Shown here: positions 1,692 through 31,278 of the stretch, piece after piece
Position numbering within the stretch: the stretch's first letter is position 1
How the letters are laid out: each line of letters starts with the position of its first letter
Assembly: GCF_003991155.1 (NCBI RefSeq)
Contig: NZ_CP031293.1
Source of the DNA: Escherichia coli
GTDB taxonomy: Bacteria; Pseudomonadota; Gammaproteobacteria; Enterobacterales; Enterobacteriaceae
Reading direction: 5' to 3' (one strand)
DNA: 64,000 nucleotides
The notes under the pieces: model-generated
What the model was told of the DNA's origin: nothing
Database searches by the model: none
What the model saw: only the letters and a program-made list of their open reading frames with translations
Program-made: the position numbers and the translations under genes

Positions 1692-1694
1692 GAG

Positions 1695-1770: not shown

Positions 1771-1821
1771 GATACTGCGCTGGATACTACAAACTACTTC
1801 CACCGAACCCACCGTCATTAG

Positions 1822-1897: not shown

Positions 1898-1899
1898 GG

Positions 1900-1975: not shown

Positions 1976-2010
1976 GATACTACGCTGGATACTACAACTA
2001 ACTACGTTAG

Positions 2011-2086
2011 TGGTGGGTCGTGCAGGATTCGAACCTGCGACCAATTGATTAAAAGTCAACTGCTCTACCAACTGAGCTAACGACCC
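2011..2086 (-). tRNA. lysT: tRNA-Lys (anticodon UUU)
   Basis: Identical 76-nt tRNA-Lys copy; first gene of the minus-strand lysT-valT-lysW-valZ-lysY-lysZ-lysQ operon. Confidence 0.9.
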
Positions 2087-3042: not shown

Positions 3043-3051
3043 GCAATTCTC

Positions 3052-3597
<546 letters not shown>

Positions 3598-11182: not shown

Positions 11183-11185
11183 CAT

Positions 11186-11987
11186 GACTCCTTGCTCATC
11201 GCATGAAGACTCCGAGAGTGAACCCCGTTAGAAAGGGTCACACGCATGCCCCAATACAAAATTATTTGCTCGCCTCTATCGTTGCCATTTCATCAAAAGA
11301 GGAAAAGACAATGATAAAAAAGTTACAAATATGTTAATGAATAAACCAAATTGATCCCGTAATTATATTACGCCGCAAAATCCTTACAATAAACAGGTTT
11401 TTATTGAGCAAATTTGCATTTTTCGACAGTGATCAATTTATAGCGAAATTGTCACGATCTCACCAATTTGATCTACGACAATTTATCGTGTTTTGCAGAT
11501 TTTTTTCAAGAATTAAAAATTGATTTATATCAAAACCAACCAAATATGTTAATTATGTATAAACCATAGATCATTGGTGATTTTATTGTTAATTTATTGT
11601 GAAATATTTATGCAACACAATTATTACAATGAAAAGGTATAGATAAAAAACCAGTGTTTTATTTAACAGAACCGCCTTATCCACTTTTTATAATACCAAT
11701 TGATTAGATTAGCCAATTTGTTGCTATTTTACATAACATATTTTTATCAAAGTTAATTGATTGTTGCCTTTATGAGCACCGGCCGTAAGCCCGTTATGTT
11801 ATTGTTTCATTAGTAATAATCACTTAAATGTATCGATGAAACAGGTATGACTTAGCGGGAGTGATTGTTTCTGAGTGAACAGAAACCACTTTCGCCTGAT
11901 AAATGAAAAATGAGCGATTTTTGCAAGTTAGTTTTTCTATAGCCGAGTACGCTCAGCGCCTCGCTTGATTACAATGAGGTTGCTGCT
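11186..11987 (-). promoter_or_regulatory. Long AT-rich cydA upstream region (expected multi-promoter, ArcA/FNR/H-NS-controlled cydAB regulatory region) merging into the accessory-island junction
   Basis: About 800 bp without a convincing ORF upstream of cydA, visibly AT-rich with several TTGAT-like half-sites. cydAB is known to have a long multi-promoter regulatory region; individual sites were not mapped. Confidence 0.45.
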
Positions 11988-12932
11988 ATGAGTCCTGATA
12001 ATATCGGTTCGGCTGTCAATCGCTTCTCAGGTTGGCCATCTAATGATCCTCTAAAAACAGATAACGAATCAATGACATCACCCGTGACTGTGCAGGTAAT
12101 AAAGATGATTGCCGCCATCCTTGACCCATATCGGATAGTCGTTGGAATCGATACACTTTATACAACGCAGCGCGAAACATTTACCTCAGAGAGTCAACAG
12201 CTCATTGAATCAGCATTGCAAACACTTCATGTGATAAATTTAAATAACCTGGAAACAAATCTCGATGAGGACGGTCACTATCTGGCTTTTGGATATAACG
12301 TTGACACTCCTGACAGAATAACCGTTTCTGCTTATAATGAAAAAAAGCCTGGCTGCTATGGCCAATGTCTTTTAATACAGGATGACGAAACAGACTTATT
12401 TAACCTGATAAAAGTTAAAATTTTTGAAGCCAGGCATAATTATGTCGCTCAATTGATGAGCGATCCGGAATTTATGTTCAAATTTAGTTATAGCGCTCAA
12501 CAAAATAGATTAGAACCTCATCTTCTGGTTCCCACTTATTTCCCTCTAAAAACAAACGAACCGGTTACGCAAGAGGATGTACTGTTACTTTATCGTTTCT
12601 TTAAAATGGATGGTGATTTTAATATATTAACATCAGATGAATACATGAGTATCATGACACCTCTGATGAAGTGTGAGCGCAGCATCCACGACCACAACAG
12701 GTATGTGACGGGCAAAGATACCCTTCTTCTGGACTATCCTCCTTCTGGTAACCAGATATATTTCCATATTTTTCCTGACGAATCAGCAACACTAGTCCTT
12801 TATTTTTCAAACAATGACATTGAATGTTTCGTCTTTGAAAGAGATATTCCGAGCCAGTATCGCTTTTTCAAAATGTTTACCAATCTGGCACTGGTTATTG
12901 ATCAGTTAACCGATGCCAATCAAATACTTTAA
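11988..12932 (+). CDS. Hypothetical protein, 314 aa, no recognisable family; AT-rich gene with Ser/Thr/Pro/Asn-rich N-terminus
   Basis: Uninterrupted 945-nt ORF with an AGG-type SD about 9 nt upstream; visibly lower GC than the flanking cyd and glm genes; no TM segments or known motifs detected by eye. Confidence 0.55.
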   Translation: MSPDNIGSAVNRFSGWPSNDPLKTDNESMTSPVTVQVIKMIAAILDPYRIVVGIDTLYTTQRETFTSESQQLIESALQTLHVINLNNLETNLDEDGHYLAFGYNVDTPDRITVSAYNEKKPGCYGQCLLIQDDETDLFNLIKVKIFEARHNYVAQLMSDPEFMFKFSYSAQQNRLEPHLLVPTYFPLKTNEPVTQEDVLLLYRFFKMDGDFNILTSDEYMSIMTPLMKCERSIHDHNRYVTGKDTLLLDYPPSGNQIYFHIFPDESATLVLYFSNNDIECFVFERDIPSQYRFFKMFTNLALVIDQLTDANQIL

Positions 12933-13012
12933 TTTTTATATATTCCCTGTGGCAAATATTGCTAAACAATGCCCGGGGATTAATTTTTATTACTCACGGA
13001 AAGATTTAAATA

Positions 13013-13435
13013 ATGATCCCATCTCAAATCTCTTTCAACACCCTTCCTGTCAATGCAACATACGCTTCAGAGACAACAGTTGACACACAAAAATTCTCTG
13101 ACATCCTCTACTCAGCGGGGTGTTCCCTAAAGGATCTGGCTTATCTGAGCAGATGTCTGGCATCAATACATCCGACTATCGCCAAAAACATTTATGAAAC
13201 AGAAAATCTCAGCGATCAAAAATTACTACATATTGATTGCCGTAGTACAAATGAAATCAAGATAAATATCTTTTTTGGTCAACAACGAGAAGGATTAATT
13301 GAAATTAATTCTGACACTGTCATTTTTTCGATATTGTCTTCATTAATTGACTCCGCCATTTCTAAATTTCAACACCAAATCCCCGTTAACGGTTCAGTTA
13401 ATCGTGAACTATTGTATGAGGATTATACTGATTAA
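13013..13435 (+). CDS. Hypothetical protein, 140 aa, no recognisable family; second gene of the AT-rich module
   Basis: 423-nt ORF 80 nt downstream of the 314-aa ORF, same strand and same AT-rich composition; no known motifs detected by eye. Confidence 0.5.
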   Translation: MIPSQISFNTLPVNATYASETTVDTQKFSDILYSAGCSLKDLAYLSRCLASIHPTIAKNIYETENLSDQKLLHIDCRSTNEIKINIFFGQQREGLIEINSDTVIFSILSSLIDSAISKFQHQIPVNGSVNRELLYEDYTD

Positions 13436-13981
13436 ATCCACCCAGTCGCGAAAATGGCCTGCGTTATTGCCAGAGGTAATAAAACCTTTGATTAACGTTA
13501 CTCATACTGGTAGCACCTTCATGTACCTCTCTTTTTTACGAAAAATCAAAAGAGCTAACTAAGGTCATAATTCGCATGAATCATTAACCATTTGTTATTT
13601 TCAACATTATTTTTACATTAAGCAGAGATGAATTGCAGTGAAATTCGACTTAAATTTTATGAAATGCATTTACTCATGGCTAAACCCATATCACTAAAAT
13701 GCAAATTAGAAGTAGATCACAAATACCTCAATACACCAAATCAAGTTAATTTTAAAAATTTAACATTCATGACATTAGTTGACATAACACACTGAATTAA
13801 CATGAGAATTTAACAACATACTTTAAACAATCATTTCCCGAAAGACATTTTGAAAATAGATCAATTGCAACATTACGGTCAGATAAAGACACTCCTGTGA
13901 TATTAAACCTGTGCCGTTATGAACGGCCATAAATACGACGTGTGTAACTTATTTTACTCTCTGTCTTACAAAGGATTACCC

Positions 13982-14431
13982 ATGAAGAAAGCAACACTTG
14001 TGATTGGCGTTATTGGCGCGGACTGCCATGCAGTAGGCAATAAAGTTCTGGACCGCGTTTTTAGCAACCATGGCTTCAGAGTCATTAATCTGGGCGTAAT
14101 GGTCAGCCAGGACGAATATATTGATGCGGCCATTGAAACTGGCGCTGACGCGATTGTCGTCTCCTCTATCTATGGGCATGGCGATATCGACTGTCTGGGC
14201 ATGCGCGAACGCTGCATCGAGCGTGGACTGGGGGACATCCTGCTCTATGTGGGCGGTAACCTGGTGGTCGGAAAACATGACTTCGCTGACGTGGAAACCA
14301 AATTCAAAGAGATGGGATTTGATCGCGTCTTTGCCCCAAGTCATGACTTAGAAGATGTTTGTCAGCTGATGGCACACGATATCAACCAACGTCATGACGT
14401 TGATACTCGTATTCTTGAAGAGGCAATCTGA
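13982..14431 (+). CDS. glmS: Glutamate mutase sigma subunit (B12-binding, GlmS/MutS/MamA)
   Basis: ORF-track frame begins 13919; start set to [21 protein letters not shown] (AGGA SD 6 nt upstream). Strong resemblance to the Clostridium cochlearium GlmS B12-binding subunit (DxHxxG-type motif ...[10 protein letters not shown]...). Confidence 0.9.
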
Positions 14432-15819
14432 TGCAAATCGTCTCTGTCGATATTGGATCGACGTGGACCAAAGCAGCCCTCTTCGCCCGGGAGGGGGATG
14501 CGTTAACGTTGGTTAACCACGTACTGACCCCAACCACCACCCATCATCTGGCGAAGGGGTTTTTCTCCAGCCTGAACCTGGTGTTAAACGTAGATAATGC
14601 CCTCCCCCTGTTTAACAACGGTGAGGTTGCATTGAAGTATTCCTCCTCTGCCAAAGGTGGGCTGGCGGTTGCCGCAATGGGATTGGTGCCTTCTATCACC
14701 CTGGAAACCGCGAAAGTAACCGCTCACTCTGCGGGGGCTAAAATTGCGCAATATTACGCCTACAAGCTGAACCGCCGTGATATCCAGGCACTGGAAGAAA
14801 CGCAGCCCGATATTCTCTTGTTCACCGGCGGCACCGACGGCGGAGAAGAAAGCTACGGCCTGAATAACGCCCGTGTGCTGGCAGAATCCAAACTCGACTG
14901 CGCCATTATTTATGCCGGAAACCGGGATATTCAGGACGAGGTGCAGGAGATCCTAGGGCATAAAGACCTGACCATCGTCGACAACGTTCTGCCCGATCTT
15001 GACCATCCGAACCCTTTAGCTGCACGCCAGGCTATCTGCGACATATTCCTTAAACGCATCGTTAAAGGGAAAGGGCTGGATGTCGTTGTTGATAAAACAG
15101 GCGAAGAACCAATGCCGACACCGTGGACAGTCTTTGAACTGGTTAAGGCAATCAGTAATGTCGATCACAGCTGGAAAGAGTTCATGCTGATCGACATGGG
15201 TGGCGCAACCACCGATGTCTATTCCGCCTGTGCCAACACGCTCTCGCCCGACACCGTTTTACACGGCGTACCGGAACCCTTCGTGAAACGGACGGTGGAA
15301 GGCGATCTGGGAATGCGCGTCTCGGCAATGGTGGTTGGTGAAAGTGCGAAAGAGTTAGTCAATGTGAATTTTGCTCAGCAACCCGCACAGCTGGACGCTT
15401 TTTATCATTACCTCCGTCATCTAGTCGCTCATCCCGACTACTTACCCGCGAATGCAGAAGAAAAATATTTCGATACCGTCCTGGCCGGACTGTGTGTGGG
15501 TTATGCCACCGAAAGACATGCGGGCACCAAAAAAGAGGTCTGCACCTGCGTCGGCAATGTCGATTTACAGATGGGACGTGACCTGACAACCGTGCGTAAA
15601 GTCGTCGGATCCGGCGGATGGCTCTCGCGTGCCAGTCAGTTCGATATGCATCACTGGTTGAAATACCGCGAGTTAAACGACGACGGTAAACGCATTCTCT
15701 TACCGACCGAATTTGAATATTACCGCGATTCCCGGGGGCTATTACCACTGCTGGCAAACGTCGCCAGAGTCGATCCGCTGGCCGCCGCGCGCACCAGTAT
15801 TCAATGCTTAACCCTATAA
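14431..15819 (+). CDS. glmL: Glutamate mutase-associated protein GlmL/MutL (putative chaperone/reactivase)
   Basis: 462-aa ORF sandwiched between glmS and glmE as in clostridial glutamate mutase operons; ATGA start/stop overlap with glmS. Confidence 0.85.
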   Translation: MQIVSVDIGSTWTKAALFAREGDALTLVNHVLTPTTTHHLAKGFFSSLNLVLNVDNALPLFNNGEVALKYSSSAKGGLAVAAMGLVPSITLETAKVTAHSAGAKIAQYYAYKLNRRDIQALEETQPDILLFTGGTDGGEESYGLNNARVLAESKLDCAIIYAGNRDIQDEVQEILGHKDLTIVDNVLPDLDHPNPLAARQAICDIFLKRIVKGKGLDVVVDKTGEEPMPTPWTVFELVKAISNVDHSWKEFMLIDMGGATTDVYSACANTLSPDTVLHGVPEPFVKRTVEGDLGMRVSAMVVGESAKELVNVNFAQQPAQLDAFYHYLRHLVAHPDYLPANAEEKYFDTVLAGLCVGYATERHAGTKKEVCTCVGNVDLQMGRDLTTVRKVVGSGGWLSRASQFDMHHWLKYRELNDDGKRILLPTEFEYYRDSRGLLPLLANVARVDPLAAARTSIQCLTL

Positions 15820-15837: not shown

Positions 15838-17283
15838 ATGGAACTTCGAAATAAGAAATTAACCCATGACGAATTCATGACCGAGCGGCAACAGGTACTG
15901 AAAACCTGGGAAACCGGCAAGGATGTTGAAAACTTTGAAGATGGCGTTAAATACCAACAAACCATTCCTGAGCATAAACGCTTCTCTCTTGCCCTGCTGA
16001 AAGCAGACAAGGAAGGTAAAACTCTTAGCCAACCGCGCGCAGGCGTGGCGCTGATGGACGAACACATCGAACTACTGAAAACACTACAAGAAGAGTGCGA
16101 TCTGCTGCCGAGCACCATCGATGCATATACCCGTCTGAATCGGTACGAAGAAGCGGCTGTAGGGATTAAAAAATCCATCGAAGCCGGAACCTCTAAACTG
16201 AACGGTTTACCGGTCGTTAACCACGGCGTCGCAGCTTGCCGTCGCCTCACCGAAACTCTGCAAAAACCGCTACAGATCCGCCACGGCACGCCAGATGCGC
16301 GTCTGCTGGCTGAAATCTCGATGGCCAGCGGCTTTACCAGTTATGAAGGCGGCGGCATTTCCTACAATATTCCGTATGCCAAGCGCGTAACGCTGGAAAA
16401 ATCGATCCGCGACTGGCAGTACTGCGACCGTTTAATGGGGATGTATGAAGAACACGGGATCCGCATCAACCGCGAACCGTTTGGCCCACTAACGGGTACC
16501 CTGATCCCGCCGTTTATCTCGCACTCTATCGCGATAATCGAAGGCTTGCTGGCGCTGGAACAGGGTGTGAAATCTATCACCGTTGGTTATGGACAGGTCG
16601 GCAGCCTGACGCAGGATGTTGCGGCGATCCAGTCTCTGCGTGAACTTGCACACGAATATTTTCAGAGCTATGGCTATACCGACTATGAATTAAGTACCGT
16701 GTTTCACCAGTGGATGGGCGGCTTTCCGGAAGACGAATCGAAAGCGTTCGCTATTATCTCCTGGGGCGCAGCCGTCGCGGGGATGTCTGGTGCCACCAAA
16801 GTCATCACCAAAAGTCCGCACGAAGCCTGGGGCATCCCGACTGCCGCTGCCAACATTCAGGGGCTGAAAGCCTCCCGCCAGATGCTCAACATGGTCAACG
16901 AGCAGAAATTCCCGCCGTGCCCTGCGGTTGAACTGGAAATTGAACTGATTAAGAGCGAGGTTCGCGCGGTACTGAATAAAGTGTTCGAACTGGGTAATGG
17001 TGATATTGCGCGCGGTACGGTGCTGGCATTTGAAGCGGGCGTACTGGATGTGCCGTTTGCGCCAGCCGCCTGCAACGCGGGCAAAATTCTTCCGGTCCGT
17101 GACAACACCGGCGCGATACGCGTACTGGAAGCCGGAGCCGTTCCATTGCCAAAAGATATTCTCGACCTCCACCACGATTACGTTGCGGAACGCGCACGCT
17201 TTGAAGGACGCCAACCGACATTCCAGATGGTTGTAGATGACATCAATGCTGTATCCCACAGTAAATTAATAGGAAGACCATAA
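15838..17283 (+). CDS. glmE: Glutamate mutase epsilon (catalytic) subunit
   Basis: 481-aa ORF collinear with clostridial GlmE (MELRNKK..., ...SQPRAGVALMDEHIELL..., ...FHQWMGGFPEDESKAF..., ...FQMVVDDINAV...). Confidence 0.9.
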   Translation: MELRNKKLTHDEFMTERQQVLKTWETGKDVENFEDGVKYQQTIPEHKRFSLALLKADKEGKTLSQPRAGVALMDEHIELLKTLQEECDLLPSTIDAYTRLNRYEEAAVGIKKSIEAGTSKLNGLPVVNHGVAACRRLTETLQKPLQIRHGTPDARLLAEISMASGFTSYEGGGISYNIPYAKRVTLEKSIRDWQYCDRLMGMYEEHGIRINREPFGPLTGTLIPPFISHSIAIIEGLLALEQGVKSITVGYGQVGSLTQDVAAIQSLRELAHEYFQSYGYTDYELSTVFHQWMGGFPEDESKAFAIISWGAAVAGMSGATKVITKSPHEAWGIPTAAANIQGLKASRQMLNMVNEQKFPPCPAVELEIELIKSEVRAVLNKVFELGNGDIARGTVLAFEAGVLDVPFAPAACNAGKILPVRDNTGAIRVLEAGAVPLPKDILDLHHDYVAERARFEGRQPTFQMVVDDINAVSHSKLIGRP

Positions 17284-18524
17284 TGAAAATAAAACAGGCT
17301 CTGTTCACCGCTGGCTACTCCTCATTCTATTTCGATGACCAGCAGGCGATAAAAAACGGAGCGGGTCATGACGGCTTTTTTTATACCGGGGAGCCGGTAA
17401 CACAGGGGTTTAACGCCGTTCGTCAGGCCGGGGAGTGCGTATCAGTACAGTTGATTCTGGAAAACGGCTCGGTCGCCGTAGGTGACTGTGCTGCCGTACA
17501 GTATTCCGGGGCAGGTGGTCGCGATCCACTGTTCCTCGCTGAGCACTTTATTCCGTTCCTCAACGACCATATCAAGCCATTACTGGTAGGCCGCGATGTG
17601 GATGCTTTCCTGCCGAATGCCCGTTTCTTCGACAAATTGCGTATTGACGGCAACTTGCTGCATACCGCCGTGCGCTACGGATTATCACAGGCGCTGCTTG
17701 ATGCTACCGCGCTGGCAACCGGCCGTCTGAAAACTGAAGTAGTTTGCGATGAATGGCAGTTGCCACGCGTGGCGGAATCCATTCCATTATTTGGTCAGAG
17801 CGGGGACGATCGATATATCGCCGTCGATAAGATGATCCTTAAGGGCATCGACGTGCTGCCCCATGCACTGATTAATAACGTCGAAGAGAAACTGGGCTTT
17901 AAAGGTGAAAAACTGCGCGAATATGTCCGCTGGCTGTCGGATCGTATTCTGAGCAAGCGCACCAGCGCACGCTACCACCCTACCCTGCACATCGATGTAT
18001 ACGGCACTATCGGTCTGATCTTCGATATGGATCCGCTTCGCTGTGCGCAATACATCGCCAGCCTGGAAAAAGAAGCGCAAGGCCTGCCGCTCTACATTGA
18101 AGGGCCGGTCGATGCCGGTAACAAGCCCGATCAAATTCGCCTGCTGACCGCGATTACCAAAGAGCTGACGCGCCTCGGTTCCGGCGTGAAAATTGTGGCC
18201 GATGAATGGTGTAACACCTACCAGGATATTGTTGATTTCACTGATGCCGCCAGTTGTCACATGGTGCAAATCAAAACCCCGGATCTGGGCAGTATTCACA
18301 ACATCGTCGATGCGGTTCTTTACTGCAACAGCCACAGCATGGAAGCGTACCAGGGCGGCACCTGCAATGAAACTGATGTCAGTGCCCGCACCTGTGTCCA
18401 CGTCGCCCTTGCCGCTCGCCCTATGCGTATGCTGGTAAAGCCAGGGATGGGCTTTGACGAAGGCCTCGATATCGTCTTCAACGAAATGAATCGTACTATC
18501 GCGCTGTTGCAGGCTAAGGATTAA
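17283..18524 (+). CDS. mal: 3-Methylaspartate ammonia-lyase (beta-methylaspartase)
   Basis: 413-aa ORF highly similar by recall to the Clostridium tetanomorphum enzyme (MKI...FYFDDQ.AIK.GAGHDGF.YTG..., ...HMVQIKTPDLG..., ...CNET...); ATGA overlap with glmE. Confidence 0.9.
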   Translation: MKIKQALFTAGYSSFYFDDQQAIKNGAGHDGFFYTGEPVTQGFNAVRQAGECVSVQLILENGSVAVGDCAAVQYSGAGGRDPLFLAEHFIPFLNDHIKPLLVGRDVDAFLPNARFFDKLRIDGNLLHTAVRYGLSQALLDATALATGRLKTEVVCDEWQLPRVAESIPLFGQSGDDRYIAVDKMILKGIDVLPHALINNVEEKLGFKGEKLREYVRWLSDRILSKRTSARYHPTLHIDVYGTIGLIFDMDPLRCAQYIASLEKEAQGLPLYIEGPVDAGNKPDQIRLLTAITKELTRLGSGVKIVADEWCNTYQDIVDFTDAASCHMVQIKTPDLGSIHNIVDAVLYCNSHSMEAYQGGTCNETDVSARTCVHVALAARPMRMLVKPGMGFDEGLDIVFNEMNRTIALLQAKD

Positions 18525-18527: not shown

Positions 18528-19898
18528 ATGGCTCGTTCTTTTAAAGTCTTATCGCCAACGGCAATCCTCGGGTATGGATTCCCGGAAGAGAGCTTCCGCA
18601 AAGCGATGGCAGAATCGCCCGATCTGATCGCCGTTGATGCAGGCTCTTCCGATCCTGGCCCCCACTACCTCGGAGCGGGCAAACCGTTTACCGATCGCGC
18701 AGGGGTCAAGCGCGATCTGCGCTATATGATCACCGCAGGCGTGCAAAATAATATACCGGTGGTGATCGGAACAGCTGGCGGTTCTGGTGCCGCACCACAC
18801 CTGGAGTGGTGCCGAGAAATAATTCATGAGATTGCCCGGGAAGAGCGACTCGTGTTCTCGATGGCGCTGATCCCGGCAGACGTTGACAAAGCCATCGTCC
18901 ACCAGGCGCTGGATAACGGCAAAATCACGGCGCTGGATTTTGTCCCGCCGTTAACCCACGACGCGATTGACGAAAGTACGTATATCGTTGCGCAAATGGG
19001 CATCGAACCCTTCCAGCGGGCGCTGAAAGAAGGCGCGCAAGTGGTGCTGGGCGGGCGCGCTTACGACCCGGCCTGCTTTGCTGCGCTCCCGATCATGCAA
19101 GGCTTTGATGAAGGTCTGGCGCTGCATTGTGGGAAAATCCTTGAATGCGCGGCAATCGCCGCAACGCCCGGCTCAGGCTCTGACTGTGCGATGGGCATCA
19201 TTGATGACAACGGCTTTACGCTGAAGACATTTAATCCGAAGCGTAAATTTACCGAAACGTCAGCGGCTGCACACACACTGTATGAGAAATCCGATCCCTA
19301 CTTCCTGCCTGGACCTGGCGGCGTGTTGAACCTGAAAGGCTGCACATTTAAAGCGGTCAATGACGGCGAAGTGTACGTCAGCGGTTCTAAGCATGAAGAA
19401 ACGCCGTATGCCCTGAAACTGGAAGGTGCGCGACGGGTGGGCTTCCGCTGTCTGACCATCGCAGGAACGCGCGACCCGATCATGATCGCCGGGATCGATA
19501 AAATCATCGATGAAGTCAAAACCAGCGTTTCACGTAACCTGTCGCTCGACGATGACAGCATTCGCATCAATTTCCACCTGTACGGCAAAAACGGGGTGAT
19601 GGGCGACCATGAACCGATGCAAACTGCCGGGCATGAGCTGGGGATTGTCCTTGATGTAGTTGCACCGACCCAGGAAATTGCCAATAGCGTTTGCTCGCTG
19701 GTGCGCTCTACCATGCTGCACTACGGCTATGAAAACCGCATCGCTACCGCAGGCAATCTGGCGTTCCCGTTCTCCCCTTCTGATATCCAGGGCGGGCCGG
19801 TATACGAATTTTCCATATATCACCTGATTGAAGCCAACGACGCTCTGCGTTTTGATTTCCATATTGAACAGGTGACGCCAGAAGGAGTTCAGGCATGA
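18528..19898 (+). CDS. Conserved hypothetical protein, 456 aa; family not confidently assigned (size and pairing reminiscent of AtuA-like DUF1446 proteins)
   Basis: ORF starting 3 nt after the mal stop with an AAGGA SD; no cofactor motif recognised by eye. The DUF1446 suggestion is from memory of domain architecture, not from alignment. Confidence 0.7.
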   Translation: MARSFKVLSPTAILGYGFPEESFRKAMAESPDLIAVDAGSSDPGPHYLGAGKPFTDRAGVKRDLRYMITAGVQNNIPVVIGTAGGSGAAPHLEWCREIIHEIAREERLVFSMALIPADVDKAIVHQALDNGKITALDFVPPLTHDAIDESTYIVAQMGIEPFQRALKEGAQVVLGGRAYDPACFAALPIMQGFDEGLALHCGKILECAAIAATPGSGSDCAMGIIDDNGFTLKTFNPKRKFTETSAAAHTLYEKSDPYFLPGPGGVLNLKGCTFKAVNDGEVYVSGSKHEETPYALKLEGARRVGFRCLTIAGTRDPIMIAGIDKIIDEVKTSVSRNLSLDDDSIRINFHLYGKNGVMGDHEPMQTAGHELGIVLDVVAPTQEIANSVCSLVRSTMLHYGYENRIATAGNLAFPFSPSDIQGGPVYEFSIYHLIEANDALRFDFHIEQVTPEGVQA

Positions 19899-20212
19899 AA
19901 CAGTCAATTGTCTCACTGGCGCAAGTCATTCGTTCGAAAAATGCCGGACCTTACGAACTGGTTTTAGATATTTTATTTAAAACGAAAGAAAACTATGAGC
20001 GAGTTAAATCATCAGGGCAATTAACCCCAGAACTGATTGCGCGCTTATATCATGTTGAACCTGACTTTATTCACCGTATTGTCTGGTTTGATCCTTCTAA
20101 CGCAGTAAAAATCGTCATGCCACGAGATATTATCTCCGGGAATGTAGGTGACAATGATGTCTATGGTGCACAGCAACATGCACCTTTATTAAATATGAGT
20201 TTCGATTTGTAA
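19895..20212 (+). CDS. Conserved hypothetical small protein, 105 aa (possible DUF4387-like partner of the preceding gene)
   Basis: ORF whose ATG overlaps the stop of the 456-aa gene (ATGA), implying translational coupling; no motifs recognised by eye. Confidence 0.6.
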   Translation: MKQSIVSLAQVIRSKNAGPYELVLDILFKTKENYERVKSSGQLTPELIARLYHVEPDFIHRIVWFDPSNAVKIVMPRDIISGNVGDNDVYGAQQHAPLLNMSFDL

Positions 20213-20295
20213 AAATCCGAATACTTTTAGCCAACTGACATCCCGTCACTTATTGCAGTTCAACACTTCAGCTATTTGTAAGGTTGTAATAGCAG

Positions 20296-20327
20296 GTAGA
20301 TGCCTGAATCTCTATTCAGGCATCTAC
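20296..20327 (+). other. Perfect 14-bp inverted repeat (gtagatgcctgaat-ctct-attcaggcatctac) in the 160-nt gap before the transporter gene; intra-operon terminator/attenuator or operator candidate
   Basis: Seen directly; followed by a T-rich tract (ttctcctgattctgattt). Confidence 0.4.
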
Positions 20328-20372
20328 TTCTCCTGATTCTGATTTATCGCCGTGCACCTGATGGAGGAAAAA

Positions 20373-21653
20373 ATGAAGAAAATAAGTTTAACCACGATGA
20401 TTCTTTTGGCGCTGGTACTTGGAATGATTATCGGCGTAGTGCTCAATAACACTGCTTCACCGGAAACCGCAAAACTCTATGCGCAAGAAATATCGATATT
20501 CACGACGATTTTCTTACGACTGATAAAAATGATTATCGCTCCGTTAGTGGTCTCTACCCTGGTGGTAGGTATAGCTAAAATGGGAGATGCCAAAGCCCTT
20601 GGTCGTATTTTTTCTAAAACACTCTTTTTATTTATTTGCGCCTCATTGCTGTCAATTGCCTTAGGCTTGATAACGGTAAATTTCTTCATGCCAGGCACAG
20701 GAATTAATTTTGTTGCACACGGTGCCGAAACCACCGGAGTGGTCGCGTCAGAACCCTTTACACTAAAAGTATTTATTTCGCATGCTTTCCCCACCAGCAT
20801 TGTCGATGCCATGGCACACAATGAAATTTTGCAAATCGTGGTGTTCTCAATTTTCCTCGGCTGTAGCCTGACGGCGATTGGTGAGAAAGGCAGCGCCATC
20901 GTTCACGCCTTAGATTCGCTGGCACATGCCATGTTAAAGCTCACTGGCTACGTCATGCTCTTCGCTCCCCTGACCGTATTCGCCGCTATTTCAGCATTGA
21001 TTGCTGAACGAGGACTGGCAGTTATGGTGAGCGCCGGGATCTTTATGGGTGAATTTTATTTCACCATGTTGTTACTTTGGGTGCTGCTTATCGGTCTGGC
21101 CATCGTTTATGTCGGCCCCTGCATCAGACGCCTGACCCGTGCCCTTTCGGAACCCGCCCTGCTGGCATTTACCACATCCAGTTCTGAAGCGGCTTTTCCG
21201 GGAACGCTTGAAAAACTGGAGCAATTTGGCGTTTCCCCCAAAATTGCCAGCTTTGTCTTACCCATTGGCTACTCATTTAATCTCGTTGGATCAATGGCCT
21301 ACTGCTCCTTCGCCACAGTTTTCATCGCCCAGGCCTGCAATATCCATTTATCCATCGGTGAGCAAATCACCATGCTGTTGATCCTGATGTTGACCTCGAA
21401 AGGAATGGCTGGCGTACCACGCGCCTCAATGGTGGTTATCGCCGCCACGCTCAACCAGTTCAATATTCCGGAAGCGGGGCTGATCTTGCTGATGGGCGTT
21501 GATCCGTTCCTTGATATGGGGCGTTCCGCGACAAACGTCATGAGCAACGCAATGGGCGCTGCGATGGTGAGTCGGTGGGAAGGCGAACATTTCGGCGAGG
21601 GCTGTCGGGGTAAAGCATTAAAACCCAATGAATCGAACGTTGCTCTGCCCTGA
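20373..21653 (+). CDS. Dicarboxylate/amino acid:cation symporter (DAACS family, GltP/GltT-like); putative glutamate or C4/C5-dicarboxylate uptake
   Basis: ORF-track frame begins 20352; start set to MKKISLTT with a GGAGG SD. Multi-TM protein with the family-typical layout; family call by overall resemblance to GltP/DctA-type carriers. Confidence 0.8.
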   Translation: MKKISLTTMILLALVLGMIIGVVLNNTASPETAKLYAQEISIFTTIFLRLIKMIIAPLVVSTLVVGIAKMGDAKALGRIFSKTLFLFICASLLSIALGLITVNFFMPGTGINFVAHGAETTGVVASEPFTLKVFISHAFPTSIVDAMAHNEILQIVVFSIFLGCSLTAIGEKGSAIVHALDSLAHAMLKLTGYVMLFAPLTVFAAISALIAERGLAVMVSAGIFMGEFYFTMLLLWVLLIGLAIVYVGPCIRRLTRALSEPALLAFTTSSSEAAFPGTLEKLEQFGVSPKIASFVLPIGYSFNLVGSMAYCSFATVFIAQACNIHLSIGEQITMLLILMLTSKGMAGVPRASMVVIAATLNQFNIPEAGLILLMGVDPFLDMGRSATNVMSNAMGAAMVSRWEGEHFGEGCRGKALKPNESNVALP

Positions 21654-21760: not shown

Positions 21761-23413
21761 ATGTCCAAACCATTTATCTGGCAAGAACCGTTTCTACAAA
21801 ATAAAGACGGTACAGAATATACATTAATTAGCGATCAACATATTACAGTAACGGAATTAGACGGCGAAGAAGTGATAAAAATCGCTCCTGAAGCATTAAC
21901 GCTGCTTGCCCGGCAGGCATTTTATGAAGCCTCTTTTTTCTTACGTTCCGCTCATTTGCAACAGGTCGCCAGCATTCTTAACGATCCGCACGCCAGTAGT
22001 AATGATAAATACGTTGCGTTGCAGTTATTACGTAATGCTGAAGTCTCAGCAAAAGGGGTATTACCCAACTGTCAGGATACCGGCACCGCAACTATTGTTG
22101 CCAGTAAAGGGCAACAGATATGGACCGGAGGTAACGACGCTGAAGCCTTAAGCAAAGGCATTTACACCACTTTTCAGGAAAATAATCTGCGCTTTTCACA
22201 AAATGCGCCACTGGATATGTATACCGAAGTCAATACGCAAACCAATCTACCGGCGCAGATTGATATCAGCGCCGTCGCTGGTGATGAGTACCATTTTCTC
22301 TGTATTAATAAAGGGGGCGGCTCTGCCAATAAAGCCGCGCTTTATCAGGAAACCAAATCCCTATTGCAACCAGAAAAACTGACCGCATTTTTAATCGAAA
22401 AAATGAAATCGCTGGGCACCGCTGCCTGCCCGCCTTACCACATCGCCTTTGTCGTCGGAGGGCTTTCAGCCGATCAAACCTTAAAAGTTGCCAAGCTGGC
22501 CTCAACGAAATATTACGACAATTTGCCCACCAGCGGAAACGAGCAAGGACAAGCATTCCGTGATATTGAGCTGGAAAAAGTATTGCTCGAGGCCAGTCAG
22601 CAATTTGGTATTGGTGCGCAATTTGGGGGTAAATATTTCGCTCATGATATTCGCGTCATTCGTCTGCCGCGTCACGGTGGCTCTTGCCCGATAGCTATGG
22701 CGCTCTCCTGTTCTGCGGATCGCAATATCAAAGCAAAAATTAACAAGCACGGTATCTGGCTGGAAAAACTCGAACACAATCCGGGGCAATATATTCCAGC
22801 CTCACTGCGGGAAGAAAATCACGCGCAACATGTACAGCTGGATCTAAACCGTCCGTTGCGTGACGTGATGCAGGATCTCGCCAGATTACCGGTAGGCACC
22901 CGCGTGTCGTTAAGTGGTCCCATCGTAGTGGCGCGCGATATCGCCCACGCCAAAATAAAAGCGCGGCTGGATAGCGGCGAACCGATGCCGGATTACCTGA
23001 AGCATCATATTGTCTATTACGCTGGCCCGGCGAAAACACCGGAGAACATGGCCTGCGGTTCACTGGGTCCAACCACGGGCGGTCGAATGGACGGTTATGT
23101 CGATACCTTCCAGGCGGCTGGCGGCAGTCTGGTGATGTTATCGAAAGGTAACCGCAGCCAGCAGGTCACCGATGCCTGTCACAAACATGGCGGCTTCAAT
23201 CTGGGGAGTATTGGCGGTGCAGCTGCGTTACTGGCGCAAGAATATGTCAAAAGTCTGCGTTGCCTGGAATACCCGGAGCTGGGTATGGAAGCGGTGTGGA
23301 TGATGGAAGTGGAAAATTTACCCGCATTCATCCTGGTAGATGATAAAGGCAATAATTTCTTTAGTCAGTTTGAGCAGCAACACCGCTGCGCCAGTTGCCC
23401 TGCGGGACATTAA
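21761..23413 (+). CDS. fumD: Class I (Fe-S) fumarate hydratase paralogue; probable mesaconase/fumarase FumD of the methylaspartate pathway
   Basis: 550-aa ORF with FumA/FumB-like length and sequence, located in the glm-mal operon. A class I fumarase paralogue encoded with glutamate mutase/methylaspartase in E. coli O157:H7 was reported to act as mesaconase; orthology here is inferred from context. Confidence 0.8.
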
Positions 23414-24028: not shown

Positions 24029-24056
24029 CTGCGCCTGGCATCCCGCCAGGCGCAGG
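24029..24056. terminator. Convergent terminator hairpin (ctgcgcctgg-N8-ccaggcgcag) between the cobA-like and LysR genes
   Basis: 10-bp perfect inverted repeat followed by gtttta on the plus strand; seen directly. Confidence 0.55.
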
Positions 24057-24058: not shown

Positions 24059-24964
24059 TTACATCTCCTGCGGTACGACCGATTTCGCCAGCAACCATTC
24101 ACGAAATTGCTGCAAGTGCGGTGAGTCAGACTTCTCTTCCTGCCACGTCATAATAAAACGATTACCGGTACGAATAGGCACATCACAGGGAATCACCATA
24201 TCGCCACTATCCAAATCATGTTGAATAGCGAACCGTGGTAACAGCGCCACGCCGAGATTAGAGCGCACGGCGGCAATCAGCATTGAAAGCAAATCGAAAC
24301 GTGGTCCGTTATTGACCAGCGGACTGCTAACGCCAGATAAAGCAAACCACTCTTCCCAGCCAGTAATACGGGTGCTTTGATGCAGAAGTGGTAACTCAGT
24401 AAGCAGTTCTGCCACTGACAGTTTTTGATCGGACATTGCAAGCAAACTGCCGCTGCATACCGGCAAAATCTCCTCATCAAAGAGATATTCTACTTCCGCC
24501 CAGGGCGCGCAAAAATTTTCGCGCATAATGACAGCATCGTACTCCCGATTAAGAAAATCGCCGTTATTAGCTAAAGAATGAATATTAACAATAATATCGG
24601 GATGTAACTTTGTGAATTCATGTAAATTTGGGATTAACCAGTGGGTACTAAAAGTAGGATTAACGGCAAGTTCAATAACCTGAACCGTAGGCTGCCAGGT
24701 CATAATGGTATTGGTATCGCGTTCCAGCTTATTTAATGTTTCTTTTACTATCCCCAGGTAATACTTCCCTGCATCATTAAGAAAAATGCGTTTTTTAGAG
24801 TGTGAAAATAACGGAGTACGTAAAAATTCCTCCAGCGCACTTACTTGTCTGAATACTGCACTTTGGGTTAACGCTAACTCCTCTGCCGCTCTGGTATAAC
24901 TTTCATGACGTGCGACGACCTCAAAAGTCACCAGCAGTTCCGTTTTAGGTATTTTTCCTCGCAT
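24059..24964 (-). CDS. LysR-family transcriptional regulator
   Basis: 301-aa ORF with N-terminal wHTH (...TFEVVARHESYTRAAEELALTQSAVFRQVSALEE...) and LysR substrate-binding-domain length; AGGGAAGG SD. Confidence 0.85.
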   Translation of the reverse strand: MRGKIPKTELLVTFEVVARHESYTRAAEELALTQSAVFRQVSALEEFLRTPLFSHSKKRIFLNDAGKYYLGIVKETLNKLERDTNTIMTWQPTVQVIELAVNPTFSTHWLIPNLHEFTKLHPDIIVNIHSLANNGDFLNREYDAVIMRENFCAPWAEVEYLFDEEILPVCSGSLLAMSDQKLSVAELLTELPLLHQSTRITGWEEWFALSGVSSPLVNNGPRFDLLSMLIAAVRSNLGVALLPRFAIQHDLDSGDMVIPCDVPIRTGNRFIMTWQEEKSDSPHLQQFREWLLAKSVVPQEM

Positions 24965-25234: not shown

Positions 25235-26905
25235 TTATTTTTGATTTATAGCATATCCTTCTAAGAATTTTTGCGAAGCTGCAATATCTGGGGTAAAGAC
25301 CCGATCCTGGTCGACAAACGGCACGACTTTTCTGTATTCGGTAAACATTGCTTTGGTGGATTTCCCTAATGCCAGTTGTGGATCGGCCTGCAACCGTAAA
25401 TCGAGAGCCTGTGCGGAATGCATCAGTTCAATGCCATAAATCACGTTCAGATTATCGACAACCTGTTTCAATCTTCTGGCCGCGTGGTCATTATTGGCAC
25501 CGGTATCTTCTATACCTCCGGCAACCGGTTGAATATCGAAAGAAACCGGGTTAGCGAGATCGACATTTTCCGCATGCAGCGCAACAAACGGGATATGTAA
25601 TGAACCGAAGCCATGACCTTTATTACCTGCTGCCGACAGGAAGCGTGACAAACCGGTAAAGTGATCATCTTCAAGATGCAGCGAGCGGCGCATACTGTTA
25701 TGTGAAACATGCACTAACGCCACGGTCAGACGCTGGGTGGCAAGCGCAACCGGTAACGATTCGAAATTCGCCGTCGGGAAGATCCCACCGCTGATTGCCC
25801 CATCTTTAACAAAATATTGCGCGACCTGACTGGAGTCCTGATACGCTTTGTCTGCATTCAGCACGGTTGCCGGGTTGTCATCGGAACTGTTGATCTGCAC
25901 GGTAATGGTATCTTCAGCATCGCGCAACGCGCGCATTGCCTCAGAAATGGTATACACCGTCGTTCTGAACGATAACGGATCCTGCAATGCACGTTTGTCA
26001 TGCTTATGCCATAAATAAGAACCACTTAACGCATCGCGAATCTCTTTAGCGGAATCAGCCAACTGCGGGAAAGGACGCACGGCGATCGACTGCGGCAGTA
26101 CCGGCGCGACATTGCCATTCAACGCTTCCAGACTCATAGCGAAAACCACCGGGCTGACATTCAGCAACTGACGTGCCGAACGAACAGCTTCGATAGCGTA
26201 GGCTGTCCCGACGCTGTTGTTCGATAAAATCGCCAGCATATCTTTACCCTGCGGTACCAGTGGCTTAAGTCCCACTTTCGCCAGCGCGTCACCACCGCTC
26301 ATTTGCACGCCATTTACTCGGGCTTTCCATTCCCCCATCATCACCAGACCAACGTGCGAAGCGAGCATAATATCCGCTGCGCCGATACTTCCCCGCACCG
26401 GAATTAACGGTGTAACGCCGCGATTAATAAATTCGGCATACAACTCGGCAATATAAGGCTGTGCGCCGGTTTGCCCATGCAGCATGGTATTTAAACGTAA
26501 TACCATTGAAAGGCGTGCCAGATAATCCGGTAACATCGGACCAACGCCCGCAGAATGGGCGCGCAGCGCGGCAGCATTAAATTTTTTCGACGCGTCAATC
26601 ACCTCAGGCGTTAAATTTCCTTTGGCATCAAATATGGGCTGATCTTTATTTAGCCCCACGCCCACGGTTAAGCCATAAACAGGCGTACCTGAATGCGCGG
26701 CAGTCATCACCAGATCATAACTTTTTTCCATGCGCTCCATGGCGTTCGACGCGATTTTGACGCCGTTATCACCTAATGCAATTGACCAGGCCTGGTCAAT
26801 GGAAAGATGTTCGCCATCCAGCGTAATGGTTGATTTCGCCATCGCAATGGAGCAAACGCTCCAGAGCACAACGGTGACAGTGACTCTTCGTATCAATCCT
26901 TTCAT
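25235..26905 (-). CDS. Histidine ammonia-lyase (HAL/PAL) family protein with N-terminal signal peptide and apparently degenerate MIO motif
   Basis: 556-aa ORF. N-terminus MKGLIRRVTVTVVLWSVCSIAMA-KS looks like a Sec signal peptide; the rest aligns by eye with HutH (YGLTVGVG, ...PVRGSIGAADIMLASH...), but the canonical GASGDL (Ala-Ser-Gly MIO precursor) reads GAADIM. Confidence 0.7.
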   Translation of the reverse strand: MKGLIRRVTVTVVLWSVCSIAMAKSTITLDGEHLSIDQAWSIALGDNGVKIASNAMERMEKSYDLVMTAAHSGTPVYGLTVGVGLNKDQPIFDAKGNLTPEVIDASKKFNAAALRAHSAGVGPMLPDYLARLSMVLRLNTMLHGQTGAQPYIAELYAEFINRGVTPLIPVRGSIGAADIMLASHVGLVMMGEWKARVNGVQMSGGDALAKVGLKPLVPQGKDMLAILSNNSVGTAYAIEAVRSARQLLNVSPVVFAMSLEALNGNVAPVLPQSIAVRPFPQLADSAKEIRDALSGSYLWHKHDKRALQDPLSFRTTVYTISEAMRALRDAEDTITVQINSSDDNPATVLNADKAYQDSSQVAQYFVKDGAISGGIFPTANFESLPVALATQRLTVALVHVSHNSMRRSLHLEDDHFTGLSRFLSAAGNKGHGFGSLHIPFVALHAENVDLANPVSFDIQPVAGGIEDTGANNDHAARRLKQVVDNLNVIYGIELMHSAQALDLRLQADPQLALGKSTKAMFTEYRKVVPFVDQDRVFTPDIAASQKFLEGYAINQK

Positions 26906-26955
26906 TGTGTTTCCTTATCATGATGAGTTTAACAACGGGTTACTGCGACAACGTT

Positions 26956-29704: not shown

Positions 29705-29705
29705 A

Positions 29706-31115: not shown

Positions 31116-31278
31116 GAAAAAGTCTCCTGCAAAATGAGAGGTCATTTTTTGAAACAGCAATAGAGGGTCGGGAGATATTTCTCTCGACGATGTAAAAATA
31201 TTTTTTGATAATTATTGTTATACAGGCGAATTATTCTCCGCCTGTATTAGCGCAAATATTAAATGACGGCGTTAATAT

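What the first reader, a model, noticed from the sequence alone, without database searches (positions are those of the whole stretch)
18528..20212. Two unassigned genes translationally coupled to methylaspartate ammonia-lyase
A 456-aa and a 105-aa ORF directly follow mal; the second ATG overlaps the first stop (ATGA). The pair is separated from the downstream transporter and fumD by a 160-nt gap containing a perfect 14-bp hairpin. I recognise no catalytic motifs. The size and pairing recall AtuA-like DUF1446 plus small DUF4387 partners, whose biochemical role is unknown. Their fixed position inside the operon suggests a missing function of the methylaspartate route, for example an accessory activity on methylaspartate, mesaconate or citramalate, or a maturation factor.
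Basis: inference. Interest (0 to 1): 0.55.

Follow-up and report, generated by a model that had tools for sequence, protein, structure and literature searches.

The report
Citramalate lyase genes cmlA and cmlB
The two "unassigned" genes after methylaspartate ammonia-lyase are the E. coli copies of CmlA/CmlB, a recently solved two-subunit citramalate lyase that supplies the long-missing last step of glutamate breakdown, so the finding is real but already explained.

Summary
The family guess is also right (Pfam AtuA/DUF1446 and DUF4387). The function is no longer unknown. Both proteins match, full length and without gaps, the two chains of PDB 9ERQ and 9EVF (92.1% and 84.6% identity). These are deposited as "Citramalate lyase subunit A (cmlA)/B (cmlB)", in AMPPNP-citramalate and ADP-pyruvate complexes released in October 2025. 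[quoted passage not shown] In 80 species-representative genomes from many phyla, cmlB follows cmlA in 79. mal lies directly upstream in 70 of the 74 loci with enough flank, and no CitDEF-type lyase gene occurs nearby. So cmlAB completes the pathway glutamate, methylaspartate, mesaconate, citramalate, pyruvate plus acetate. My inference, not shown, is that ATP transiently activates the C4 carboxylate as an acyl phosphate; the N-domain's nearest folds are carboxylate kinases. Public annotation (RefSeq, NCBIfam) has not caught up. Verdict: already known, low interest as a discovery. Side observations: a covarying intercistronic RNA and a third P-loop partner gene outside Enterobacterales.

The parts
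13982..14431 (+). glmS, methylaspartate (glutamate) mutase subunit S; first gene of the operon
   Evidence: NCBIfam NF002612 4.4e-76 and TIGR01501. The start follows the RefSeq annotation. It overlaps glmL by 1 nt.
14431..15819 (+). glmL, mutase accessory protein (reactivase)
   Evidence: TIGR01319 6e-267 and NF040745 1.6e-152.
15838..17283 (+). glmE, methylaspartate mutase subunit E
   Evidence: TIGR01503 1.1e-260.
17283..18524 (+). mal, methylaspartate ammonia-lyase
   Evidence: TIGR01502 2.1e-163.
18516..18520 (+). Shine-Dalgarno-like AAGGA for cmlA, lying inside the end of mal
   Evidence: Read from the sequence; 7 nt before the ATG at 18528.
18528..19898 (+). cmlA, large subunit of citramalate lyase (Pfam AtuA/DUF1446)
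19882..19887 (+). Shine-Dalgarno-like AAGGAG for cmlB, lying inside the end of cmlA
   Evidence: Read from the sequence; 7 nt before the ATG at 19895.
19895..20212 (+). cmlB, small subunit of citramalate lyase (Pfam DUF4387); its start overlaps the cmlA stop (ATGA)
   Evidence: 84.6% identical over 104 residues to PDB 9ERQ/9EVF chain B, 'Citramalate lyase, subunit B (cmlB)'. Pfam PF14330 2.9e-39. It is fused to the C-terminus of CmlA-like proteins in ~610-aa homologues.
20295..20328 (+). Intercistronic RNA stem-loop (14 perfect pairs plus a closing G-U, loop CUCU) between cmlB and the transporter gene
   Evidence: It is conserved in position in 20 Enterobacterales, and 12 of its 14 pairs change on both sides. 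94% of cells pair, against 31-43% in the slid controls. G-U pairs on the + strand show it forms in the sense RNA. No T-run follows the stem and Rfam has no match.
20373..21653 (+). Dicarboxylate/amino acid:cation symporter (GltP/DctA family), probable glutamate uptake
   Evidence: NF002461 1.5e-93 and NF008440 1.5e-90, both below the curated cut-offs. RefSeq start and name.
21761..23413 (+). fumD, class I fumarase acting as mesaconase (mesaconate to (S)-citramalate); it makes the CmlAB substrate
   Evidence: NF011921 scores 1285.9 bits, above its cut-off. FumD of E. coli O157:H7 was characterised as a mesaconase/fumarase in PMC4682846.
23423..24025 (+). cobA/cobO, cob(I)alamin adenosyltransferase (makes the coenzyme B12 needed by the mutase); last gene of the operon
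   Evidence: NF004637 1.6e-88. A terminator-like hairpin follows at 24029-24055.
24059..24964 (-). Convergently transcribed (its 3' end faces the end of cobA/cobO) LysR-family regulator, candidate regulator of the operon
   Evidence: NCBIfam LysR-family matches. It is conserved next to the cluster in 27 of 80 loci, essentially the Enterobacterales.

Best explanation
cmlA (18528-19898) and cmlB (19895-20212) encode the two subunits of a citramalate lyase that uses neither CoA nor an acyl carrier protein. It carries out the last step of the methylaspartate pathway encoded by this operon. Glutamate is taken up by the GltP-like symporter and converted to methylaspartate by GlmSE (with GlmL, and with B12 adenosylated by CobA). 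Mal then makes mesaconate, FumD makes (S)-citramalate, and CmlAB makes pyruvate plus a C2 unit (acetate). It replaces the classical CitDEF-type citramalate lyase of clostridia.

Shown: full-length orthology to a solved enzyme deposited under that name with citramalate/AMPPNP and pyruvate/ADP bound; a preprint reporting growth dependent on the Raoultella enzyme; and the conserved gene context.

Inferred, at about 0.5 confidence for this step alone: the nucleotide is part of the chemistry. ATP phosphorylates the C4 carboxylate of citramalate. The resulting acyl phosphate plays the role that the thioester plays in citramalyl-CoA or citramalyl-ACP lyases, making the acetate-side carbanion a feasible leaving group. 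C2-C3 cleavage then gives pyruvate plus acetyl phosphate. The acetyl phosphate is either released, so that acetate kinase regains the ATP, or returns its phosphate to the bound ADP and leaves as acetate.

CmlB is an obligatory partner of CmlA. The pairing is conserved across the whole superfamily, and the two are fused in some homologues.
For: Sequence identity. CmlA matches 9erq_A/9evf_A at E 2.8e-292, residues 1-456 to 1-456, with 420/456 identical. CmlB matches chain B at E 5e-57, with 88/104 identical. The depositors name the molecules 'Citramalate lyase, subunit A (cmlA)/B (cmlB)'. None of the 36 differences in CmlA falls on the 168 columns that are invariant across 21 diverse orthologues.

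Experiment by others. bioRxiv 10.64898/2026.01.16.699985 used R. planticola cmlAB, a gift of I. [quoted passage not shown] Growth of an acetyl-CoA auxotroph on mesaconate depended on it, and isotope label passed from mesaconate into acetyl-CoA.

The gap it fills. Kronen & Berg 2015 (PMC4682846) noted the DUF1446 gene downstream of mal in these clusters. They found no citramalate lyase activity in E. coli O157:H7 and left the fate of citramalate open. Their assay mixture contained no ATP.

Gene context. In 80 loci from species-representative genomes of many phyla, cmlB follows cmlA in 79. mal is directly upstream in 70 of the 74 loci with enough flank, and glmE, glmS and glmL are usually present. 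A class I fumarase lies downstream in many. One Holophagaceae locus has cmlAB plus a split fumarase but no glm/mal. No CitD/E/F homologue occurs in 1.32 Mb of these loci.

Subunit pairing. Fusions of AtuA with DUF4387 exist, and distant members of the superfamily are also paired.
Against: The E. coli proteins themselves have not been assayed. The experimental basis is PDB deposition names and titles plus one preprint that used the Raoultella enzyme. I could not find or read the primary paper. Kronen & Berg found no conditions under which E. coli O157:H7 expresses the cluster, and saw no anaerobic growth on glutamate.

Confidence: 0.8

Rival explanations
1. CmlAB is the citramalate lyase, but the nucleotide is only a structural or allosteric ligand. 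Cleavage is a plain, probably metal-assisted, retro-aldol reaction like that of isocitrate lyase. It releases acetate directly and ATP is not turned over.
For: [quoted passage not shown] Acetyl-CoA synthetase was up-regulated in the evolved strains, consistent with free acetate. The kinase-fold similarity is weak.
Against: The depositors crystallised the substrate with a non-hydrolysable ATP analogue and the product with ADP. That is the usual way to trap the two ends of an ATP-using reaction. The nearest folds to the N-domain are carboxylate kinases. An ATP-free assay in 2015 detected no activity, although the genes were probably not expressed in those cells.
Confidence: 0.35
2. The pair is not an enzyme of the carbon path. 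It is an accessory or maturation factor for methylaspartate ammonia-lyase or glutamate mutase, or it acts on methylaspartate or mesaconate. These were the first reader's alternatives.
For: The genes are packed tightly behind mal. I recognised no catalytic motif from sequence alone.
Against: The solved orthologue binds citramalate and pyruvate and is named a lyase. GlmL already provides the mutase accessory function. cmlAB also occurs with a mesaconase alone, without glm or mal, in a Holophagaceae locus. The Raoultella genes alone confer mesaconate-dependent acetyl-CoA formation in E. coli.
Confidence: 0.03
3. The genes do what their database name suggests, namely a role in acyclic terpene (citronellol/geraniol) utilisation like AtuA of Pseudomonas.
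For: RefSeq names the product 'acyclic terpene utilization AtuA family protein'. Pfam AtuA matches.
Against: The Pfam match is weak and partial (66.6 bits, residues 63-394). The neighbourhood contains no atu genes such as acyl-CoA carboxylase, hydratase or dehydrogenase. The orthologue is a citramalate lyase.
Confidence: 0.01
4. In E. coli the genes are biochemically competent but physiologically cryptic. On this view they are an island remnant that is rarely or never expressed and contributes nothing to fitness.
For: Kronen & Berg could not induce the cluster or obtain glutamate-dependent anaerobic growth. The cluster is accessory, present in 21% of complete E. coli genomes, and the full glm+hut version is in only 142 of 5426.
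Against: All ten genes are intact. Start and stop codons are tightly packed and Shine-Dalgarno sites are good. The proteins are 95-100% conserved across 1125 genomes. A covarying RNA element is maintained in the operon. The adjacent hut genes supply glutamate from histidine.
Confidence: 0.1

Closest known systems
CmlAB citramalate lyase (PDB 9ERQ and 9EVF; enterobacterial enzyme, from Raoultella planticola according to bioRxiv 10.64898/2026.01.16.699985)
   Different: There are 36 substitutions in CmlA and 16 in CmlB, all outside invariant columns for CmlA. The E. coli proteins have not been assayed. The host species differs.
Classical citramalate lyase of Clostridium tetanomorphum (CitDEF-type complex; Buckel & Bobi 1976, as cited in PMC4682846)
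   Same: It has the same overall reaction and the same place in the methylaspartate pathway, (S)-citramalate to pyruvate plus acetate.
   Different: The proteins are unrelated. The classical enzyme has three subunits, including an acyl carrier protein with a prosthetic group. It needs the activation genes citC/X/G and works through an acetyl-ACP/citramalyl-ACP thioester cycle. CmlAB has no CitD/E/F homology, and no such genes lie in the 80 cmlAB loci. It binds an adenine nucleotide instead.
Citramalyl-CoA lyase with succinyl-CoA:citramalate CoA-transferase (mesaconate and itaconate degradation)
   Same: It also cleaves the citramalate carbon skeleton to pyruvate plus a C2 unit.
   Different: It needs CoA activation by a separate transferase and yields acetyl-CoA. 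According to PMC4682846, most enterobacteria lack these genes. There is no homology to CmlAB.
AtuA of Pseudomonas (acyclic terpene utilisation; namesake of Pfam PF07287)
   Same: It belongs to the same Pfam superfamily. Polar residues are conserved across the superfamily: D37, D42, D63, R177, D180, H200, K203, E206, C207, H249, E253 and E299 in 33 homologues down to 30% identity. The association with DUF4387 is also superfamily-wide. From my own knowledge, untested here: the Atu pathway contains a step that releases acetate from a 3-hydroxy-3-alkyl acid, formally the same bond cleavage.
   Different: The relationship is distant (66.6-bit partial Pfam match). The gene context is different and no terpene genes are present here. 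To my knowledge the biochemical function of AtuA itself has not been established.
Amino-acid-kinase fold carboxylate kinases (aspartokinase, N-acetylglutamate kinase, carbamate kinase)
   Different: There is no detectable sequence similarity (no Pfam AA_kinase hit). Only about half of the domain aligns. These kinases do not break C-C bonds. Homology is not established.
ATP-citrate lyase (mechanistic analogy only)
   Same: It couples ATP to the cleavage of a 3-hydroxy-3-carboxy acid through activated acyl intermediates, including an acyl phosphate.
   Different: It has a different fold (ATP-grasp and succinyl-CoA-synthetase-like domains plus a citrate-synthase-like domain). It requires CoA and yields acetyl-CoA. 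There is no homology, and the comparison rests on my own knowledge.

Membership tests
CmlAB citramalate lyase (PDB 9ERQ/9EVF) | Full-length sequence orthology of the large subunit to CmlA | tested here: met
   phmmer E 2.8e-292, residues 1-456 to 1-456. tblastn gives 92.1% identity with no gaps.
CmlAB citramalate lyase (PDB 9ERQ/9EVF) | Full-length sequence orthology of the small subunit to CmlB | tested here: met
   phmmer E 5.2e-57, residues 1-104 to 1-104, 84.6% identity.
CmlAB citramalate lyase (PDB 9ERQ/9EVF) | Same three-dimensional fold as the solved large subunit | tested here: met
CmlAB citramalate lyase (PDB 9ERQ/9EVF) | Adjacent cmlA-cmlB genes inside a glutamate mutase / methylaspartase / mesaconase cluster | tested here: met
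   The window operon. cmlB is adjacent in 79 of 80 loci, and mal is directly upstream in 70 of 74.
CmlAB citramalate lyase (PDB 9ERQ/9EVF) | Retention of residues invariant in the orthologue family | tested here: met
   There are 168 invariant columns in alignment A1. None of the 36 differences between the window and the PDB chain falls on them.
CmlAB citramalate lyase (PDB 9ERQ/9EVF) | Catalysis of (S)-citramalate cleavage to pyruvate plus acetate or acetyl phosphate, and binding of an adenine nucleotide | not testable with these tools
   Known only for the orthologue, from PDB titles and a preprint. It needs an enzyme assay of the E. coli proteins.
Pfam AtuA (PF07287, DUF1446) | Significant match to the family HMM | tested here: met
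   E 2.3e-18, 66.6 bits, residues 63-394 of 456. The match is weak and partial, so this is a divergent subfamily.
Acyclic terpene utilisation (Atu) system | Location in an atu-type cluster (geranyl-CoA carboxylase subunits, hydratase, acyl-CoA dehydrogenase) | tested here: not met
   The neighbours are glmSLE, mal, a symporter, fumD, cobA, a LysR regulator and hut genes. No atu-type genes are present.
Pfam DUF4387 (PF14330) | Significant match to the family HMM over its full length | tested here: met
   E 2.9e-39, model positions 2-97 of 98.
Citrate/citramalate lyase complex, CitDEF type | Homology to the ACP (CitD), the beta subunit (CitE) or the alpha subunit (CitF) | tested here: not met
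   NCBIfam and Pfam give no such match for either protein. E. coli CitD/E/F find nothing at E <= 1e-5 in the 80 cmlAB loci.
Amino acid kinase superfamily | Fold similarity of the nucleotide-binding or catalytic domain | tested here: inconclusive
Amino acid kinase superfamily | Sequence match to Pfam AA_kinase | tested here: not met
   Only AtuA is reported for CmlA at E <= 10.

The most novel reading that the evidence does not exclude
The adenine nucleotide seen in the solved orthologue may be a true co-substrate or co-catalyst. On this reading CmlAB, and by extension the whole AtuA/DUF4387 superfamily (about 2400 clusters at 50% identity, bacteria to fungi), are 'kinase-lyases'. They would activate a free carboxylate as an acyl phosphate on a diverged carboxylate-kinase-like domain in order to break a C-C bond, and would release acetyl phosphate. 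The last step of glutamate fermentation would then be ATP-neutral through acetate kinase. AtuA itself would be predicted to be the unidentified acetate-releasing lyase of terpene catabolism. In most non-enterobacterial lineages a third, uncharacterised P-loop protein encoded right after cmlB would belong to the system. Parts of this may already be in the primary paper, which I could not read.
Probability: 0.3. Interest if true: 0.6.

Novelty: already known. Interest (0 to 1): 0.2.

Why it matters
The pair closes a gap that stood open for a decade. Enterobacteria carry glutamate mutase, methylaspartase and a mesaconase but no recognisable citramalate lyase, so the fate of citramalate was unknown (PMC4682846). 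CmlAB is a non-homologous replacement of the classical ACP-dependent lyase, and its large subunit's fold has no close relative in the PDB. It gives the first biochemical handle on the large AtuA/DUF4387 superfamily. For this window the practical value is annotation. RefSeq/PGAP (September 2026) and NCBIfam (June 2026) still label the genes 'AtuA family protein' and 'DUF4387', and some records call the large subunit a methylaspartate ammonia-lyase. Together with the adjacent hut genes, the island encodes a complete route from histidine or glutamate to pyruvate and acetate. About a fifth of E. coli genomes carry it (Kronen & Berg 2015 reported the glutamate mutase/methylaspartase genes in about 90% of O157:H7 strains), which is relevant to growth in the gut. 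As a discovery claim it is not new.

Tried and rejected
1. Primary publication. Eight full-text searches used terms including citramalate lyase, DUF1446, DUF4387, CmlA/CmlB, 9ERQ/9EVF, AtuA family and acetyl phosphate. They found only Kronen & Berg 2015 and one preprint that uses the enzyme. The PDB-code hits were unrelated strings.

2. NCBIfam has no model for either protein.

4. The hairpin as an intrinsic terminator. The scan lists only a 5-pair sub-stem and no T-run follows, so I rejected it as a canonical terminator. Rfam has nothing there.

5. CmlB homologue search for fusions. The top 120 hits are all stand-alone ~105-aa proteins. Fusions turned up only among distant CmlA homologues.

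6. The third P-loop gene. Pfam, NCBIfam and PDB sequence searches match only the Walker A region.

7. The two hypothetical ORFs upstream of glmS have no NCBIfam match.

8. Acetate kinase or phosphotransacetylase linkage as a test of the acetyl-phosphate idea. None was seen among the called neighbours in three annotated loci. This is uninformative because these are housekeeping genes.
Full report
**Observation.** The window carries an ORF at 18528..19898 (456 aa, ATG) and another at 19895..20212 (105 aa, ATG) on the + strand. The second ATG overlaps the first stop as ATGA (19895-19898). The first ORF begins 3 nt after the TAA of the preceding gene. Shine-Dalgarno-like AAGGA (18516-18520) and AAGGAG (19882-19887) each lie 7 nt before their start codon. 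The gap to the next gene is 160 nt if that gene starts at ATG 20373, as RefSeq annotates it. The gap contains a perfect 14-bp inverted repeat, 20296-20309 with 20314-20327, and a 4-nt loop. As RNA the gap folds much better than its shuffles (z = -4.66).

**Surroundings.** NCBIfam identifies the upstream genes as glmS, glmL, glmE (methylaspartate mutase and its accessory protein) and mal (methylaspartate ammonia-lyase). Downstream are a DctA/GltP-family symporter, a class I fumarase (NF011921, above its cut-off) and a cob(I)alamin adenosyltransferase. A convergently oriented LysR regulator follows on the opposite strand. The DNA is E. coli. The two-gene stretch occurs at 95-100% identity in 1125 of 5426 complete genomes. 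The island sits between cydAB and sucABCD and continues into a hut (histidine utilisation) cluster. Most E. coli genomes have mngRAB at this site instead. Only 142 genomes carry the full glm+hut version.

**Family assignment.** NCBIfam has no model for either. RefSeq names them 'acyclic terpene utilization AtuA family protein' and 'DUF4387 domain-containing protein'.

[quoted passage not shown] Berg. It showed plasmid-dependent growth of an acetyl-CoA auxotroph on mesaconate, with isotope label passing from mesaconate into acetyl-CoA.

The same laboratory's 2015 paper (PMC4682846) had characterised FumD of this very cluster as a mesaconase. It remarked on the DUF1446 gene downstream of mal, found no citramalate lyase activity in E. 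coli O157:H7 extracts, and concluded that the fate of citramalate was unclear. I could not find the primary paper on CmlAB in the searchable library.

**Co-occurrence.** A scan of one genome per species returned 576 relatives, and the best 80 loci (57-99% identity) were kept. They come from Enterobacterales, Rhodocyclales, Riflebacteria, Spirochaetes, Lentisphaerae, Aminicenantes, Holophagae, Firmicutes, Chloroflexi and others. tblastn with the window's proteins gives these counts:
- cmlB lies next to cmlA in 79 of 80 loci; the exception is at a contig end.
- mal lies directly upstream on the same strand in 70 of the 74 loci with at least 1.4 kb of upstream flank.
- glmE, glmS and glmL are present in 67, 60 and 59 loci.
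- A class I fumarase, single-chain or split, lies downstream in many loci.

Of the four exceptions, one (L077) has mal 3 kb upstream. One Holophagaceae locus (L046) has cmlAB followed by a split fumarase without glm or mal, a mesaconate-to-pyruvate module on its own. E. coli CitD, CitE and CitF find nothing in the 1.32 Mb of these loci. CmlAB therefore stands in for the classical ACP-type lyase that clostridial clusters carry.

**Superfamily.** An exhaustive search finds 2383 cluster representatives at E <= 1e-3. Homologues of about 610-620 aa carry a C-terminal region 34-41% identical to CmlB. One of these is a fungal gene with Pfam AtuA plus DUF4387. Distant bacterial members are again followed by a DUF4387 gene in unrelated contexts. 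The two proteins are thus one functional unit throughout the superfamily. Across 33 homologues down to 30% identity, the conserved polar residues are D37, D42, D63, R177, D180, H200, K203, E206, C207, H249, E253 and E299. This suggests a shared chemistry.

**Mechanism: shown.** The orthologue binds citramalate with an ATP analogue and pyruvate with ADP (PDB titles). It supports citramalate cleavage in vivo (preprint). The gene context places it after the mesaconase.

**Mechanism: inferred.** Releasing acetate from citramalate requires a carbanion next to a carboxylate. The known citramalate, citramalyl-CoA and citrate lyases avoid this by using a thioester. Trapping the substrate with a non-hydrolysable analogue and the product with ADP is what one does for an ATP-using reaction. 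When the N-terminal domain (residues 1-262; model pLDDT 81) is searched alone, the best matches after 9ERQ are amino-acid-kinase-fold enzymes:

Several of these make acyl or carbamoyl phosphates from ATP. I therefore favour, at about 0.5, a transient citramalyl-4-phosphate whose cleavage gives pyruvate and acetyl phosphate. The acetyl phosphate would either be released, with ATP regained by acetate kinase, or would hand its phosphate back to the bound ADP.

The scores are low and there is no sequence match to AA_kinase, so homology is not claimed. The rival reading is a nucleotide acting only as a structural or allosteric ligand with direct release of acetate. It fits the preprint's wording and its silence on ATP, and I rate it at about 0.35. 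The 2015 assay mixture contained no ATP, so an ATP-requiring enzyme would have been missed even if it had been expressed.

**The hairpin.** It is not followed by a T-run, is not a canonical terminator, and has no Rfam match. Aligning the 160 nt before the symporter start from 20 Enterobacterales shows the stem-loop at the same position with different sequences. Of its 14 pairs, 12 change on both sides. Overall 94% of cells pair, against 31-43% when the partners are slid, and none of 500 shuffles reaches the observed covariation. G-U pairs on the + strand indicate that the structure forms in the sense RNA. An upstream covarying hairpin, an enclosing helix and a small hairpin over the symporter's ribosome-binding site accompany it. 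The likely roles are a 3'-end protector for the enzyme-coding part of the transcript or a leader that controls the symporter and fumD. Neither was tested.

**Comparison with the known, and verdict.** The pair is an orthologue of an experimentally characterised, structurally solved enzyme, and it sits in the very cluster where the gap was first described. The membership tests for CmlAB (sequence, fold, gene order, context, invariant residues) are all met; only catalysis could not be tested. Membership of the Atu terpene system fails on context. Membership of the CitDEF lyases fails on homology. Novelty is 'already known', and interest as a new finding is low (0.2). What remains open is the role of the nucleotide, the activity and expression of the E. 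coli copy, the intercistronic RNA, and a third P-loop gene that accompanies cmlAB outside Enterobacterales.

Noticed in passing
window 20213-20372 (main stem-loop 20295-20328): The cmlB-symporter spacer is a conserved structured RNA in Enterobacterales. The main hairpin has 12 of 14 covarying pairs. There is also a second covarying hairpin upstream, an enclosing helix (GGTTGGT with ACCARCC), and a small hairpin over the symporter's Shine-Dalgarno site. Rfam has no match. Its function (transcript-end protection or a leader for gltP-fumD) is unknown.
   Followed up: partly
L081:9712-10665, L082:9698-10654, L083:9677-10618, L046:11367-12338 and 37 further loci; absent from the window: A third conserved gene lies immediately after cmlB in 41 of the non-enterobacterial loci. 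It encodes about 315 aa with an N-terminal YYAPRGR motif and a Walker A motif (GVIGAEGSGKST). Pfam, NCBIfam and PDB match nothing beyond the P-loop. It is missing from all Enterobacterales loci, and the enterobacterial CmlAB orthologue was crystallised and used in vivo as a two-subunit enzyme without it.
   Followed up: partly
window 25235-33075 (- strand) and 33734-35131 (+): A histidine-utilisation module (HAL-family ammonia-lyase, hutG, hutI, hutD, a permease, hutU) lies next to the glutamate cluster, followed by an rtcB gene. Together they would convert histidine or urocanate through glutamate to pyruvate and acetate. The full 24.8-kb glm+hut island is in only 142 of 5426 E. coli genomes. 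Most strains have mngRAB between sucD and cydA instead.
   Followed up: partly
window 11000-14000 (ORFs 11988-12932 and 13013-13435; leader 13436-13981): The left edge of the island is low in G+C (34-38%, against about 53% inside). It holds two hypothetical ORFs with no NCBIfam match and a ~545-nt untranslated stretch before glmS. Rfam finds no cobalamin riboswitch there, even though the operon depends on B12.
   Followed up: partly
L046 (Holophagaceae MAG) 9633-13764: This locus has cmlAB, the P-loop gene and a split class I fumarase (MesAB-like) but no glutamate mutase or methylaspartase. It looks like a stand-alone mesaconate/citramalate-to-pyruvate module.
   Followed up: partly
L001 (JAIJJM010000101.1, labelled 'MAG: Collinsella sp.'): This 7.3-kb contig is 98-100% identical at protein level to the E. 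coli mal-cmlAB-gltP-fumD-cobA stretch and carries the exact E. coli hairpin. It is almost certainly E. coli DNA mis-binned into an actinobacterial MAG.
   Followed up: no
P0002, P0060, P0072 (homologues of window 18528-19898): Several public records name CmlA homologues '3-methylaspartate ammonia-lyase'. Kronen & Berg noted this annotation error in 2015 and it still propagates. All CmlB homologues listed are still named DUF4387.
   Followed up: no
window 1386-2086 (-) and 3013-3151 (-): There is an array of seven tRNA genes (Lys and Val by the RefSeq annotation) and the CpoB/ybgF intercistronic RNA thermometer (Rfam RF02782, 142 bits). These are ordinary core-genome features next to tol-pal.
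   Followed up: no
L087 (fungal contig SDIL01000071.1) 6001-8630; P0268, P0287, P0365: Eukaryotic and some other homologues fuse the AtuA and DUF4387 parts into one ~610-aa protein. One sits next to a fungal transcription factor and a sugar/MFS transporter. The substrate of these members is unknown.
   Followed up: partly
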